DNA from: a virus
Taxonomy: Duplodnaviria > Heunggongvirae > Uroviricota > Caudoviricetes
Length of the DNA: 17,270 nt
IMG/VR virus record: IMGVR_UViG_2778261247_000012
Strand: one strand, 5' to 3'
Position numbers and translations under genes: made by a program. Position 1 is the first letter of the stretch. The number at the start of each line of letters is the position of its first letter. The notes beneath the pieces were generated by a model. The model was not told the origin of the DNA, made no database searches, and saw only the letters and a program-made list of their open reading frames with translations. Positions 1,701 to 4,174 of the stretch are shown piece after piece.

Positions 1701-4174
1701 TAATTTTTAGCGGCATATTCTTTTATCCTTTTCAAAATTCTTTCTCTTGCTTCCTGAGGATATTTTTTAATATCATTGGATATTATCTGATTTGCACTAT
1801 CTGCATCACCCTTTAAAGCCATTAAATAAGCCAGATAGGTTGTAAGTGTTCGTTCAGACACAACTTTTCGCCTTTTCATTTTATCTAATGAGGATAAGGC
1901 TTCCTCTAGTGTCTGTATAGACTTGAATTTTAATCCAATATCACACTTTGCGAGTAATGGATAAGGACTTTCTGGATATATTGCTATACAGTCATTTATT
2001 ATGGTGATTGACTTCACTGCATCATTTTCAATTTTAGCTGAATACATTGCGTCAGCTATTTTTGCCATTTCATTTGATTGCTCTGAATCAATGCTGATTA
2101 AGGTGGTGATAATATCTTTTAACACGATATTATCTGACGCTACCCTATGCTGAGAATTTATGAGACAATTAAAATAGGCTTGACAGTGGAATTGATTGCT
2201 TCTATTTTCTTCATAGTTCTTTTTAGCATAACTTAACGCTTTATCATATTCTTCTAATTGTGTATAAACCTGAACCAATTCTCGTTTAGCTCGAGACTCA
2301 ACATATGGAGCATTGATTATACTTTCAAACTGAAAAAGTGCATCAGAAAGTCTTCCGCATTTTCTGTAATAGAAACCCAATAAAAATTTATGTTCATCAC
2401 CGGAAATTTTTTGAACTTCAGTTAAAAGCCTGGAATCGGATTTTTTTGCTAAAGCAAGACATAGATAGTATCTTATATCTTGTACAACACCATTATCCAT
2501 GTTCTTTTCTTTTTGTAAAATTGTGTCTGCTAATGATATTACTTTTTCTAATGAACCTTTTGTATTATATAAATCTTTCATACATCTTAAATAATGCGAA
2601 GGAATAAGGTGTTTAGGATCAATATACTCATCTGATTTGAGCATTTCTTTTATGGTAAAAATATATACAGATGAGTTTGCTTCTGTTAAATCTTCATTGT
2701 TTACTATATCTTTAACAACTAAATTAAGTTTTTTATTATGCTCATCATTAATCTTAAGTCTGTTTCTTTTTATATAATCTCTTACGATATCATTTAATCT
2801 GATCATTTCACCATCAGAACCCACTAATTCGCAAATGCTTTCTGCAATCAAAGCTTCAAGGACAGGTAGATATTTGTCCTTATCAACGATTGAAAAAATA
2901 AAGTCTAATGTTATTACCTCAAATTGAGCGAGGAGTCTTATAAAGTCTAAAACCGTTTCATTGTGGGCATACCTTTGTAGCTGTATTGATGCTTTATCAT
3001 TATTAAAATCTGACAGTATAGGAAGTTTATTCTCAAATGGTATTATGTTTTTATCCTTTATCAGTTCAATAGCAAACCTTACTTGTTCTGGCAAACCAGT
3101 AAGTAAGTCGCAGACGCTGCTAAAGTTGGATGGGTCTAGATCATCAATATTTTCAATTTCTAATAGTTGTGATAATAGACGCCTTCTTTCTTTTACATTA
3201 AGCTCGGGTAATTCAATGAAATAAAATCTGTCATCACGAGGCCTGTTAGCAAAGTTGACCCTGTATCTTGAGGCGATACATAATACAGGGAAATTGATGT
3301 CATTATACTCTTCAATTATCATTTTAAACCAGGGGGTTAATTCTCGCTTATAGTTTATTATACACCCATCATCTAGGAAAAATATTGTTTCTTTTGCTTT
3401 GTAAGCTTCATTTAATATGTTGGATATTATTTTTTGCTTTTCCTCAATTGTTTTTTCTGAAAGTGATAGAGCACTTTCTTTAAGATCGGTAATACCTAAA
3501 TCGTTAAGTTTTAGGATAAAATCCTCAATTGACTCATTTCTGTCTAAATATATAGCATAAGGTGTGATTTGATTTTTTTGAATGTTACATTTTATTAACG
3601 CTTTAGATAAGAATGACCTTCTTCCTACACCTATTAAACCAGATGCGAAGATAACAGTTGGTTTTTTTTTAGTGTAATCGTTAATTCTCTCTTCAAATTC
3701 TTCTAGCTTATCGTTTCTTCCTACAAATAATGAGCTTATTTTGGCAAGTTTGGGGTGTTTTTGCCAAGAAATTTTGTATAGATGGTTCTTAATTCTTGAG
3801 GCTGCAGTTCTTGCGCGTGTGATGGGTTGAAGATTATAGTCTTTTCTTAACCAATCAGGTATTCTTTGGTCTTCATGATTTATACTGTTGTCAATTATTA
3901 TGGGGAAAATTTTCAAAATTTTACCTTCATCGAGGAGTTTTTTTGACTCAGTTATTTCCTTTTTGACCCATTCGGACTCAAGTGCGCTGTTGGAAATAAA
4001 AAGAACAAATAACTCTGATTCTCCTAAACCCTCCATAATTTGGTCTAGTGTTTTTTCTCCTTCCTCAAAAGTAAATTCATCATATATTATGTTTTCCTTG
4101 CCAAGCCAATTAGCGACATTACGCACATAATGTTCCTTATCTTTACTTGAGTGCGATAAAAATGCCTTTATCAT
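1700..4174 (-). CDS. TIR-domain / STAND-like P-loop NTPase / TPR-repeat protein (824 aa); candidate anti-phage defence effector in the satellite cargo slot
   Basis: N-terminus MIKAFLSHSSKDKEHY...ELFVLFISNSALESEWVKKEI matches TIR hallmarks, including the conserved SxW..E glutamate. Residues about 145-270 read FVGRNDKLEEF...TVIFASGLIGVGRRSFLSKAL (Walker A-like) and ETIFFLDDG (Walker B). The C-terminal 350 aa are helical repeats of TPR type. Strong RBS AAGGAG 7 nt upstream of the ATG. The gene is markedly AT-rich relative to the flanking satellite genes. Confidence 0.8.
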   Translation of the reverse strand: MIKAFLSHSSKDKEHYVRNVANWLGKENIIYDEFTFEEGEKTLDQIMEGLGESELFVLFISNSALESEWVKKEITESKKLLDEGKILKIFPIIIDNSINHEDQRIPDWLRKDYNLQPITRARTAASRIKNHLYKISWQKHPKLAKISSLFVGRNDKLEEFEERINDYTKKKPTVIFASGLIGVGRRSFLSKALIKCNIQKNQITPYAIYLDRNESIEDFILKLNDLGITDLKESALSLSEKTIEEKQKIISNILNEAYKAKETIFFLDDGCIINYKRELTPWFKMIIEEYNDINFPVLCIASRYRVNFANRPRDDRFYFIELPELNVKERRRLLSQLLEIENIDDLDPSNFSSVCDLLTGLPEQVRFAIELIKDKNIIPFENKLPILSDFNNDKASIQLQRYAHNETVLDFIRLLAQFEVITLDFIFSIVDKDKYLPVLEALIAESICELVGSDGEMIRLNDIVRDYIKRNRLKINDEHNKKLNLVVKDIVNNEDLTEANSSVYIFTIKEMLKSDEYIDPKHLIPSHYLRCMKDLYNTKGSLEKVISLADTILQKEKNMDNGVVQDIRYYLCLALAKKSDSRLLTEVQKISGDEHKFLLGFYYRKCGRLSDALFQFESIINAPYVESRAKRELVQVYTQLEEYDKALSYAKKNYEENRSNQFHCQAYFNCLINSQHRVASDNIVLKDIITTLISIDSEQSNEMAKIADAMYSAKIENDAVKSITIINDCIAIYPESPYPLLAKCDIGLKFKSIQTLEEALSSLDKMKRRKVVSERTLTTYLAYLMALKGDADSANQIISNDIKKYPQEARERILKRIKEYAAKN

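What the first reader, a model, noticed from the sequence alone, without database searches (positions are those of the whole stretch)
3614..3645. Atypical Walker A in the NTPase module: arginine where the P-loop lysine is expected (GLIGVGRRS)
The context FVGR...TVIFASGLIGVGRRSFLSKAL aligns with the canonical STAND P-loop, but the invariant lysine/threonine pair is replaced by Arg-Arg, while Walker B (FFLDDG) is intact. This could mean a non-hydrolysing, binding-only switch or an alternative nucleotide specificity.
Basis: seen in the sequence. Interest (0 to 1): 0.5.

Follow-up and report, generated by a model that had tools for sequence, protein, structure and literature searches.

The report
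Arginine P-loop in bacterial TIR-NLR
The odd nucleotide-binding motif is real: this known anti-phage protein (TIR-NLR of a P4-like satellite) and its whole, very widespread family carry arginine where almost all related switches carry the essential lysine, which points to a switch that holds a nucleotide without burning it.

Summary
Confirmed. Bases 3614-3640 (minus strand) encode G179-LIGVG-R185-R186-S187 of an 824-aa TIR–STAND–TPR protein (1700-4174). This is the validated single-gene defence system "TIR-NLR" in the variable hotspot of a P4-like satellite at tRNA-Leu. Glycine spacing, the AlphaFold strand-loop-helix, profile alignment to Apaf-1 (R185=K160, R186=S161, D268/D269=D243/D244, R303=R265) and fold matches to RPP1, Apaf-1, NRC1/2 and MalT place it at the canonical Walker A.

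It is not an isolated variant. Of 336 homologues (down to 23% identity, more than ten phyla), 332 have Arg at the lysine position, encoded by all six Arg codons. Of the same 336, 316 have Arg/Lys where the Mg-binding Ser/Thr should be. The second Walker B acid is kept in the E. coli clade but lost in most of the wider family. The classical nucleotide-contact positions are among the most conserved NOD residues.

Best reading (inferred): a phosphate-binding, non-hydrolysing latch. No biochemistry was available. A 98%-identical protein is in the PDB (9M0N/9UMD), but I could not inspect it and found no paper. The protein is known; the variant is unreported in the searched literature. Moderate interest.

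The parts
1700..4174 (-). TIR-NLR gene (824 aa plus stop): TIR effector, STAND NOD, TPR sensor; single-gene anti-phage system
   Evidence: ORF. PADLOC model PDLC03015 'TIR-NLR' 1878.7 bits over 1-824/824. RefSeq WP_021038236.1. The system was validated in Rousset 2022, PMC9122126.
3815..4174 (-). TIR domain (about residues 1-120)
3956..3958 (-). E73, probable catalytic glutamate of the TIR (S-x-W-V-x-x-E motif)
   Evidence: Invariant in alignment A1; W69/V70/E73 are at least 90% conserved in the wide alignment A3. The assignment as catalytic residue rests on motif resemblance (my knowledge) and was not tested.
2765..3736 (-). STAND nucleotide-binding oligomerisation module (about residues 147-470): NBD, helical domain, winged helix
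3716..3727 (-). hhGR motif F150-V151-G152-R153 preceding the P-loop strand
   Evidence: G 331/334 and R 333/334. Aligns with Apaf-1 F126-V-T-R129. Sub-threshold AAA_16 matches of distant relatives start here.
3614..3640 (-). Variant Walker A: G179-L-I-G182-V-G184-R185-R186-S187
   Evidence: Sequence. G184 336/336. R185 332/336. Position 186: R 254, K 62, S/T 17. Position 187: T 187, S 101. All six Arg codons are used at position 185. Aligns with Apaf-1 GMAGCGKSV.
3437..3439 (-). K246, a near-invariant lysine of unknown role at the start of the helix that precedes the Walker B strand
   Evidence: K 317/342. Helix 243-259 in the model. Role unexplained.
3365..3385 (-). Walker B: I264-F-F-L-D268-D269-G270
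   Evidence: D268 337/343. Position 269: D 130, E 63, N 79 overall; only 80/193 acidic in the non-redundant set. Aligns with Apaf-1 LILDDV, D243/D244.
3260..3271 (-). Sensor-1 region S302-R303-Y304-R305 at the end of strand 298-302
   Evidence: CIASR aligns with Apaf-1 LLTTR (R265). Position 303 is K/R in 256/340 and position 305 is R/K in 244/342.
3089..3097 (-). GxP motif G360-L-P362 of the helical domain
   Evidence: G 99% and P 100% in the non-redundant set.
2789..2797 (-). L460-N461-D462 in the winged-helix domain, at the place of the STAND 'MHD' histidine motif
   Evidence: N461: 107/121 close homologues and 107 of the representatives, with His in only 4. Equivalence to Apaf-1 L-H438-D was judged by eye; hhalign stopped at residue 457.
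1703..2746 (-). C-terminal TPR-like alpha-solenoid (about residues 477-824), presumed sensor
183..200 (+). attL core of the P4-like satellite, inside the 3' end of tRNA-Leu
   Evidence: An 18-nt direct repeat with 11835-11852. tRNA-Leu at 122-206.
11835..11852 (+). attR core of the satellite (17/18 identical to attL)

Best explanation
The gene is the known single-gene anti-phage system TIR-NLR. It sits in the int-psu variable hotspot of an 11.65-kb P4-like satellite. Its central module is a true STAND NOD whose Walker A is a lineage-fixed variant, GxxGxG-R-[R/K]-[S/T]. Arg replaces the phosphate-binding Lys. A second basic residue replaces the Ser/Thr that normally ligates Mg2+.

I propose that the pocket still clamps the phosphates of a nucleotide. 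R185 would take the role of the Lys. R186 would occupy or neutralise the Mg2+ site, probably paired with the invariant Walker B Asp268. The pocket would not perform Mg-dependent hydrolysis, so the nucleotide acts as a structural latch or co-factor for oligomerisation rather than as a timer.

Phage recognition by the TPR solenoid would then open and oligomerise the NOD, bring the TIR domains together, and trigger NAD+ cleavage and abortive infection.

Shown here: the identity of the gene, the register of the motif, its family-wide fixation, and the relaxed second Walker B acid. Inferred: nucleotide binding without hydrolysis, the R186-D268 pairing, and the TPR-to-TIR activation path (the last as proposed by Rousset et al. 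2022).
For: Identity: PADLOC TIR-NLR 1878.7 bits full length. 100% match to E. coli chromosomal P4-like elements. att repeats. Rousset 2022 describes and validates the system.

Register: G-x4-G spacing, with G179 at 308/336 and G184 at 336/336. The motif lies in the strand 174-179 / helix 185-195 loop. Two hhalign runs against the Apaf-1 sequence, which I verified against 1z6t_A, give R185=K160 and R186=S161. Variants GRST/GRSS/GRTT in 17 homologues show the canonical K[ST][ST] register with K changed to R.

Fixation: R185 is present in 332/336 sequences across Gamma-, Alpha-, Beta- and Deltaproteobacteria, Campylobacterota, Bacteroidota, Bacillota, Acidobacteriota, Cyanobacteria, Planctomycetota and others. 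Codons at this position are AGA 25, CGA 20, AGG 9, CGC 8, CGT 8, CGG 3. Lys appears once, although the 34 AGR codons are one transition away from Lys.

Site still under selection: G152, R153, G184, R185, D268, G360 and P362 are among the roughly 10 most conserved of 345 NOD columns.

No hydrolysis: the Mg-ligand position is R/K in 316/336 sequences. The second Walker B residue is Asn or non-acidic in 113/193 non-redundant sequences, including Lys/Arg.

Context from the literature: the Walker A Lys binds the beta/gamma phosphates and the Thr binds Mg (PMC9633759). EfAvs5 needs ATP binding but has no ATPase activity (PMC11897194). [quoted passage not shown]
Against: No binding or hydrolysis measurement exists for this protein in anything I could read. 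The solved structures 9M0N/9UMD (98% identical, same GLIGVGRRS) could not be inspected.

In canonical NLRs the K-to-R change is a loss-of-function mutation (NOD2 K305R, PMC3400628). Arg therefore does not guarantee binding.

The E. coli clade keeps both Walker B acids (D/E at position 269 in 109/121), a Ser/Thr at +2, and a basic sensor-1 residue. Residual hydrolysis in this particular protein cannot be excluded.

The profile alignment to Apaf-1 has only 37% probability (E 3.5e-4). Pfam STAND models do not reach threshold.
Confidence: 0.55

Rival explanations
1. Dead site. The NOD has lost nucleotide binding altogether and serves only as an oligomerisation scaffold. The conserved Arg and Asp form an internal salt bridge that stabilises the empty P-loop.
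For: K-to-R inactivates canonical NLRs. The Mg ligand is missing in 94% of the family. The WHD histidine that contacts the ADP beta-phosphate in other STANDs appears to be replaced by Asn. Degenerate Walker motifs occur in another bacterial STAND, KpAvs8.
Against: A disused P-loop should drift. Here G184 is 336/336 and R185 is 332/336 with all six Arg codons, and the hhGR and GxP nucleotide-contact motifs are equally fixed over more than ten phyla. The G-x4-G anion-hole spacing is kept.
Confidence: 0.17
2. Working ATPase with an unconventional P-loop. Arg185 substitutes for Lys, S/T187 (one position later) or water ligates Mg2+, and D269 is the catalytic base. The E. coli protein would then cycle ATP like a classical NLR.
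For: This clade keeps D268-D/E269 (109/121), S/T187 (118/121) and K/R303 (117/121). Rousset et al. assumed ATP/GTP-dependent oligomerisation.
Against: Across the family the catalytic second acid is dispensable: Asn in 60, basic or other in the rest, and acidic in only 80/193. The basic residue at position 186 would sit where Mg2+ binds. Related bacterial STANDs work without hydrolysis.
Confidence: 0.15
3. Altered ligand. The Arg-Arg clamp binds, without metal, something other than ATP/ADP. Candidates are a different nucleotide, a TIR-derived ADP-ribose-type product, or another polyphosphate. The NOD would then be a second sensor or a feedback site.
For: Strict selection for Arg rather than Lys. 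Loss of the Mg ligand. Extra family-specific invariant residues of unknown role close to the site in sequence: K246, S215-I-E-D218 and W282-F283. The NOD is always fused to a TIR in the sampled family.
Against: This is purely circumstantial. The adenine-side motifs (hhGR, GxP) look like those of ordinary ATP/ADP-binding STANDs. No ligand data exist.
Confidence: 0.1

Closest known systems
TIR-NLR (DefenseFinder Rst_TIR-NLR / PADLOC TIR-NLR) of E. coli P4-like satellites, Rousset et al. 2022 (PMC9122126)
   Same: It is this system. The PADLOC profile matches full length at 1878.7 bits. The position between integrase and psu is the same, and so is the TIR-STAND-TPR architecture.
   Different: Nothing differs in the gene. 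The paper does not mention the Walker A ('walker' 0 occurrences) and assumes ATP/GTP-dependent oligomerisation.
PDB 9M0N / 9UMD, 'Tetratricopeptide repeat protein', 824 aa
   Same: About 98% identical over 1-824, with the same GLIGVGRRS and FFLDDG.
   Different: The entries are absent from the structure library dated up to 8 April 2026, and no paper was found by accession. Whether a nucleotide is bound is unknown to me.
Avs5 / SIR2-STAND (EfAvs5), another P4-hotspot-type bacterial NLR-like protein
   Same: Effector-NOD-sensor layout and NAD+ depletion. ATP binding is required but no ATPase activity is detectable (PMC11897194).
   Different: EfAvs5 has a canonical Walker A (K379, S380) with Mg2+, a TTR sensor 1 and a SIR2 effector. 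Here the motif is R-R-S and the effector is a TIR.
KpAvs8 (degenerate Walker motifs) and SeAvs7 (activation without hydrolysis), PMC13581612
   Same: These are bacterial STAND sensors in which hydrolysis is dispensable or the motifs are degenerate.
   Different: In KpAvs8 the motifs are described as degenerate. Here the motif is not degenerate but replaced by another, strictly conserved one.
Plant TIR-NLRs (RPP1) and NB-ARC/Apaf-1/MalT STAND modules
   Different: Those proteins carry GxxGxGK[ST] and, in the WHD, a His (MHD). Sequence identity is 10-14%. The sensor here is TPR rather than LRR or WD40. No Pfam STAND model reaches threshold.
Engineered Walker A K-to-R mutants of NLRs (e.g. NOD2 K305R)
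   Same: The same substitution at the same position.
   Different: There it abolishes signalling (PMC3400628). Here it is the wild-type, selected state of a working defence protein.

Membership tests
STAND NTPases (Leipe, Koonin & Aravind 2004 criteria, from established knowledge) | N-terminal hhGRExE-type motif before the P-loop strand | tested here: met
   F150-V-G152-R153, with G 331/334, R 333/334 and E161 conserved. Aligns with Apaf-1 FVTR.
STAND NTPases | Walker A GxxxxGK[ST] | tested here: not met
   The glycine spacing is met (G179, G184). The Lys is Arg in 332/336 sequences and the Ser/Thr is Arg/Lys in 316/336. No GK[ST] occurs anywhere in the protein.
STAND NTPases | Walker B hhhhD[DE] with two acidic residues | tested here: met
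   IFFLD268-D269 in this protein. In the family, D268 is 337/343 but the second acid is present in only 193/343 (80/193 non-redundant).
STAND NTPases | Sensor-1 arginine at the end of strand 4 (T[ST]R) | tested here: inconclusive
   A-S302-R303 aligns with Apaf-1 T-T-R265. Position 303 is K or R in 256/340 sequences, and a second basic position, 305, is equally conserved.
STAND NTPases | GxP motif in the helical domain | tested here: met
   G360-L-P362, at 99-100% conservation.
STAND NTPases | Winged-helix domain carrying the conserved His (MHD / sensor 2) | tested here: inconclusive
   A WHD-like alpha/beta unit at 423-470 is present in the model. At the expected place the family has L-N461-D, with His in only 4 representatives. 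The equivalence was judged by eye.
STAND NTPases | Fold of NBD-HD-WHD similar to solved STAND proteins | tested here: met
STAND NTPases | Tripartite effector-NOD-repeat sensor architecture | tested here: met
   TIR_2 at 5-99, NOD at about 147-470, TPR-like solenoid at 477-824.
Pfam STAND domain families (NB-ARC PF00931, AAA_16 PF13191, NACHT, nSTAND1-6) | Score above the family's gathering threshold | tested here: not met
   No NTPase family matches the window protein at E<=1. Hits among 21 NODs are sporadic, at E 0.03-0.1. In 8 distant relatives AAA_16 is sub-threshold in 7 (best 29.8 bits against 32.6) and NB-ARC reaches 20.2 bits against 23.5.
PADLOC / DefenseFinder TIR-NLR (Rousset 2022) | Full-length match to the TIR-NLR profile | tested here: met
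   PDLC03015, E 0, 1878.7 bits, 1-824 of 824.
PADLOC / DefenseFinder TIR-NLR (Rousset 2022) | Cargo of the P4-like satellite hotspot between integrase and psu | tested here: met
   int 370-1624, TIR-NLR 1700-4174, psu 4511-5083, delta, and the primase-helicase gene. att repeats at 183-200 and 11835-11852. Other strains carry other cassettes at the same place.
PADLOC / DefenseFinder TIR-NLR (Rousset 2022) | Protects against phages as a single gene | not testable with these tools
   Reported experimentally in PMC9122126. Consistent with the absence of any conserved neighbour gene in 76 loci.
Avs1-5 (AVAST) families | Match to an Avs profile | tested here: not met
   The PADLOC scan returns only TIR-NLR plus TIR-only models (PDC-S66, ThsB, SAVED_TIR) and no Avs model at E<=1.
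Enzymatic TIR (NADase) domains | TIR fold with the conserved catalytic glutamate | tested here: inconclusive

The most novel reading that the evidence does not exclude
The invariant Arg185 plus basic 186 form a metal-free phosphate clamp that evolved because the NOD of this superfamily no longer reads ATP/ADP. Instead it would read another phosphorylated ligand, for instance a product of its own TIR domain or a phage-altered nucleotide pool. The protein would then be a two-input receptor: protein pattern through the TPR, small molecule through the NOD.
Probability: 0.1. Interest if true: 0.75.

Novelty: new variant of a known kind. Interest (0 to 1): 0.42.

Why it matters
K-to-R in the Walker A is the textbook way to kill an NLR, yet here it is the selected wild-type state of a working immune receptor. 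The family that carries it has at least 624 clusters at 50% identity and spans many bacterial phyla.

If the pocket binds nucleotide without metal or hydrolysis, this would be a natural, clean example that STAND immune switches need only occupancy, not turnover. It would also provide a simple sequence signature, GxxGxGR[RK][ST], for recognising this clade, which Pfam's STAND models miss.

The predictions are cheap to test, because the protein is a validated defence system and a structure is already deposited. The gain is limited by context. Non-hydrolysing and degenerate NODs are already known in bacterial Avs proteins, so this refines current ideas rather than overturning them.

Tried and rejected
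- **Direct family assignment of the NOD.** Pfam, NCBIfam and PADLOC gave no NTPase family for the window protein.
- **NOD profile against PDB sequences.** The only hit was the protein's own structure, 9m0n.
- **Alternative register** (R186 as the 'lysine' after a one-residue insertion). Rejected for three reasons. The canonical G(i-6)/G(i-1) spacing fits R185 only. The GRST/GRSS/GRTT variants reproduce K[ST][ST]. Two hhalign runs give R185=K160.
- **A P-loop elsewhere in the protein.** No other G-x4-G-[KR], GK[ST] or hhhhD[DE] exists.
- **Isolated variant or sequencing error.** Rejected by conservation and by 26 E. coli genomes with at least 99.8% identical genes.
- **A partner gene.** No conserved neighbour was found in 76 loci.
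- **Covariation, to find the partner of residue 186.** The only signal was a weak association: K186 goes with an acidic residue at 267 (30/53, against 20/122 for R186; Fisher 1.7e-7). It is not corrected for phylogeny and is kept only as a lead.
- **Literature.** No paper was found for 9M0N/9UMD or on the P-loop of TIR-NLR. 'TIR-II' of PMC11350192 may be the same family, but this could not be verified because no supplement is held.
- **The search for related loci with the wide alignment A3.** It failed because no stretch was conserved enough. A1 worked.
- **tblastn against 50,697 phage records.** No match.
- **Geometry of the model.** Distances such as R186-D268 could not be examined, because coordinates are not exposed.
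- **Representative hits beyond the best 150 of 624.** These could not be seen, so the nearest canonical GK[ST] sister group was not identified.
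Full report
**1. Observation**

The minus-strand ORF 1700..4174 encodes an 824-aa protein. Residues 173-193 are TVIFASGLIGVGRRSFLSKAL.
- G179-S187 is encoded by 3614-3640, with R185 = AGA and R186 = AGG.
- FVGR is residues 150-153.
- IFFLDDG is residues 264-270.
- The finding's coordinates are correct, apart from cutting the codon of A177 by one base.
- The protein contains no GK[ST], only one G-x4-G-[KR] and only one hhhhD[DE].

**2. What the gene is**

- Pfam finds a TIR domain (TIR_2, E 5.9e-13) and weak TPRs, but no NTPase family.
- PADLOC's model 'TIR-NLR' matches over its whole length (1878.7 bits, 1-824/824).
- The window is 100% identical to E. coli chromosomes. There the gene lies between a tyrosine integrase next to tRNA-Leu and psu/delta, followed by the P4-type primase-helicase gene.
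- An 18-nt att core at 183-200 is repeated at 11835-11852, delimiting an 11.65-kb P4-like satellite.
- This is the hotspot and the system described and validated by Rousset et al. 2022. They call the middle part a STAND NTPase and propose TPR sensing, ATP/GTP-dependent oligomerisation and TIR-mediated NAD+ degradation. They do not discuss the Walker A.
- The gene is rare: 26 of 5,426 complete E. coli genomes, all at least 99.8% identical. Other strains carry other cassettes at the same place.
- A 98%-identical 824-aa protein with the same GLIGVGRRS is in the PDB (9M0N, 9UMD). It is not in the structure library dated to April 2026, and I found no paper for it.

**3. Is it the Walker A?**

Four lines of evidence agree.
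- An AlphaFold2 model built on 91 homologues (pLDDT 87.4, pTM 0.85) gives strand 174-179, loop, helix 185-195. Walker B Asp268 ends strand 264-268 and S302-R303 ends strand 298-302. A helical domain and a winged-helix-like unit follow.
- I aligned a profile of 111 diverse family members to Apaf-1 residues 122-448, a sequence I first checked as identical to 1z6t_A. The alignment covers 292 columns (E 3.5e-4, probability 37%). It pairs FVGR with FVTR, GLIGVGRRS with GMAGCGKSV, FFLDDG with LILDDV, and CIASR with LLTTR. An independent profile of 334 NODs reproduces the P-loop register. Thus R185 = K160, R186 = S161, D268/D269 = D243/D244 and R303 = R265.
- Distant relatives give sub-threshold but consistent AAA_16 hits (7 of 8) that start at the FVGR motif, plus one NB-ARC hit (E 3.8e-4).

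The glycine spacing (G179 at i-6, G184 at i-1) fits R185 and not R186 as the lysine equivalent.

**4. Is it an isolated variant?**

No. Four samples were examined.
- Close homologues (120 sequences, 45-100% identity): R185 in 120/120, R186 in 118/120, and T/S at position 187 in 117/120.
- Representative clusters: a NOD-only profile finds 624 clusters at 50% identity (E<=1e-3). In the best 150, the lysine position is R in 138 and K in 3. The next position is R 75, K 53, S/T 11. The one after is S/T 103.
- Genomic loci: 77 loci from one genome per species reach 23-28% identity in Alphaproteobacteria, Acidobacteriota, Cyanobacteria, Planctomycetota, Myxococcota and others. All have the same TIR-NOD-TPR architecture, and nearly all read GxxG[IVA]GRR[ST].
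- Pooled: G184 336/336 and R185 332/336. Position 186 is R 254 and K 62. Position 187 is S/T in 288. D268 is 337/343.

The four Lys-bearing sequences still have a basic residue next (GKKT, GKRK, GKKK, GKRR). Arg185 is encoded by all six Arg codons. Although 34 of 74 loci use AGR codons, which are one transition away from Lys, only one locus has Lys. Seventeen sequences read GRS[ST]/GRTT or similar, which is the canonical K[ST][ST] pattern with only the Lys changed. The trait therefore defines a deep superfamily in which the NOD is always fused to a TIR and no partner gene is conserved.

**5. What the pattern implies**

In canonical NLRs the Walker A Lys binds the beta/gamma phosphates and the Thr hydroxyl binds Mg2+ (PMC9633759). 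K-to-R is used as a loss-of-function allele (NOD2 K305R, PMC3400628).

In this family the residues that normally surround the nucleotide are the most conserved of the whole NOD, against a median top-residue fraction of 0.37. These are G152-R153, G179, G184-R185, D268 and G360-x-P362. This argues that the pocket is used.

Two catalytic features are gone or relaxed.
- The Mg ligand is replaced by Arg/Lys in 94% of sequences.
- The second Walker B acid is Asn or non-acidic in 113 of 193 non-redundant sequences, although the E. coli clade retains D/E (109/121).

By eye, the WHD histidine of the MHD motif is an Asn (N461).

The most economical reading is a phosphate-binding, metal-poor, non-hydrolysing latch. 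This is an inference. It agrees with what is known of other bacterial STAND sensors:
- EfAvs5 needs ATP binding but has no ATPase activity.
- SeAvs7 acts by conformational change, not hydrolysis.
- KpAvs8 has degenerate motifs.

The rivals cannot be excluded without looking at 9M0N/9UMD or doing biochemistry. They are a dead site, a working but unconventional ATPase, and an altered ligand.

**6. Comparison and novelty**

The protein is a member of the known TIR-NLR defence family and, by fold and motif order, of the STAND class. It fails the class's Walker A definition and the Pfam thresholds.

Non-hydrolysing NODs are already known. What is different here is that the motif has not decayed. 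It has been replaced by another strictly conserved motif that coincides with the classical 'P-loop-dead' substitution. I found no description of this in the searchable literature. The depositors of the structure may well have seen it.

I rate it as a new variant of a known kind, of moderate interest.

**7. Limits**

- Model coordinates are not exposed, so no distances could be measured.
- Only the best 150 of 624 representatives were visible, so the nearest GK[ST] sister group is unknown.
- The covariation signal (K186 with an acidic residue at 267) is not corrected for phylogeny.

Noticed in passing
window 183-200 and 11835-11852: An 18-nt direct repeat (GTTCGAGTCCGGCCTTCG, one mismatch). The first copy lies in the 3' end of tRNA-Leu. 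The pair looks like attL/attR of an 11.65-kb P4-like satellite.
   Followed up: partly
window 11345-11463 and 11527-11645: Two 119-nt direct repeats (82% identical, 182 nt apart) just downstream of the primase-helicase gene. Their position and size are those I recall for the P4 cis replication region (crr). This was not tested.
   Followed up: no
window 358-1624: The satellite's tyrosine integrase is split into two overlapping ORFs (358-825 and 677-1624) and is annotated 'frameshifted' in RefSeq. The homologous gene is intact in strain CFIAFB20140388 (L002 370-1632). The element may no longer excise.
   Followed up: partly
window 12535-14583 (+): A 682-aa ORF in a 31-35% GC island just outside attR. 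It has no Pfam family and only about 90 homologues, all Enterobacterales. The invariant residues H475...D481...D487...E494-L-K496 resemble a PD-(D/E)xK nuclease motif. The AF2 model is poor (pLDDT 57) and Foldseek finds nothing significant (best E 0.54), although the top weak hits are McrC, the Shedu nuclease, Can2 and Hjc.
   Followed up: partly
window 14982-16282: A decayed defence-type patch. It holds an intact HNH / type IV-like 'phosphorothioated DNA-binding restriction endonuclease' (15206-16135, minus strand; PADLOC HNH E 9e-25), flanked by a peptidase gene fragment and an HNH gene fragment.
   Followed up: partly
window 3437-3439 (K246), 3521-3532 (S215-D218), 3326-3331 (W282-F283), 2765-2767 (R470): These are family-specific, near-invariant NOD residues with no counterpart among the classical STAND motifs: K246 (317/342), S-I-E-D 215-218, W282-F283 and R470. 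Their role is unexplained. K246 lies at the start of the helix that precedes the Walker B strand.
   Followed up: no
family alignment, positions 186 / 267 / 269 of the window protein: When the residue after the Arg is Lys, the residue before the Walker B Asp is acidic in 30/53 sequences. When it is Arg, the figure is 20/122 (Fisher 1.7e-7, uncorrected for phylogeny). Arg186 tends instead to go with an acidic residue at 269. This may indicate a salt bridge that takes the place of Mg2+.
   Followed up: partly
protein P0193 (773 aa, metagenomic representative): A family member whose NOD starts at residue 2 (no TIR in the called product) and which ends in a cold-shock DNA-binding domain (CSD, E 4e-9). 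It is either a truncated gene call or a different effector/sensor arrangement.
   Followed up: no
L002 1715-3749 (E. coli CFIAFB20140388), same hotspot: At the position of TIR-NLR this strain carries a 428-aa 'nucleotide-binding protein' plus a 223-aa hypothetical protein. Other strains carry a KwaB-like gene. This illustrates cassette exchange in the int-psu hotspot.
   Followed up: no
window 7159-7536: An ash-family gene annotated as an incomplete pseudogene inside the satellite's regulatory region.
   Followed up: no
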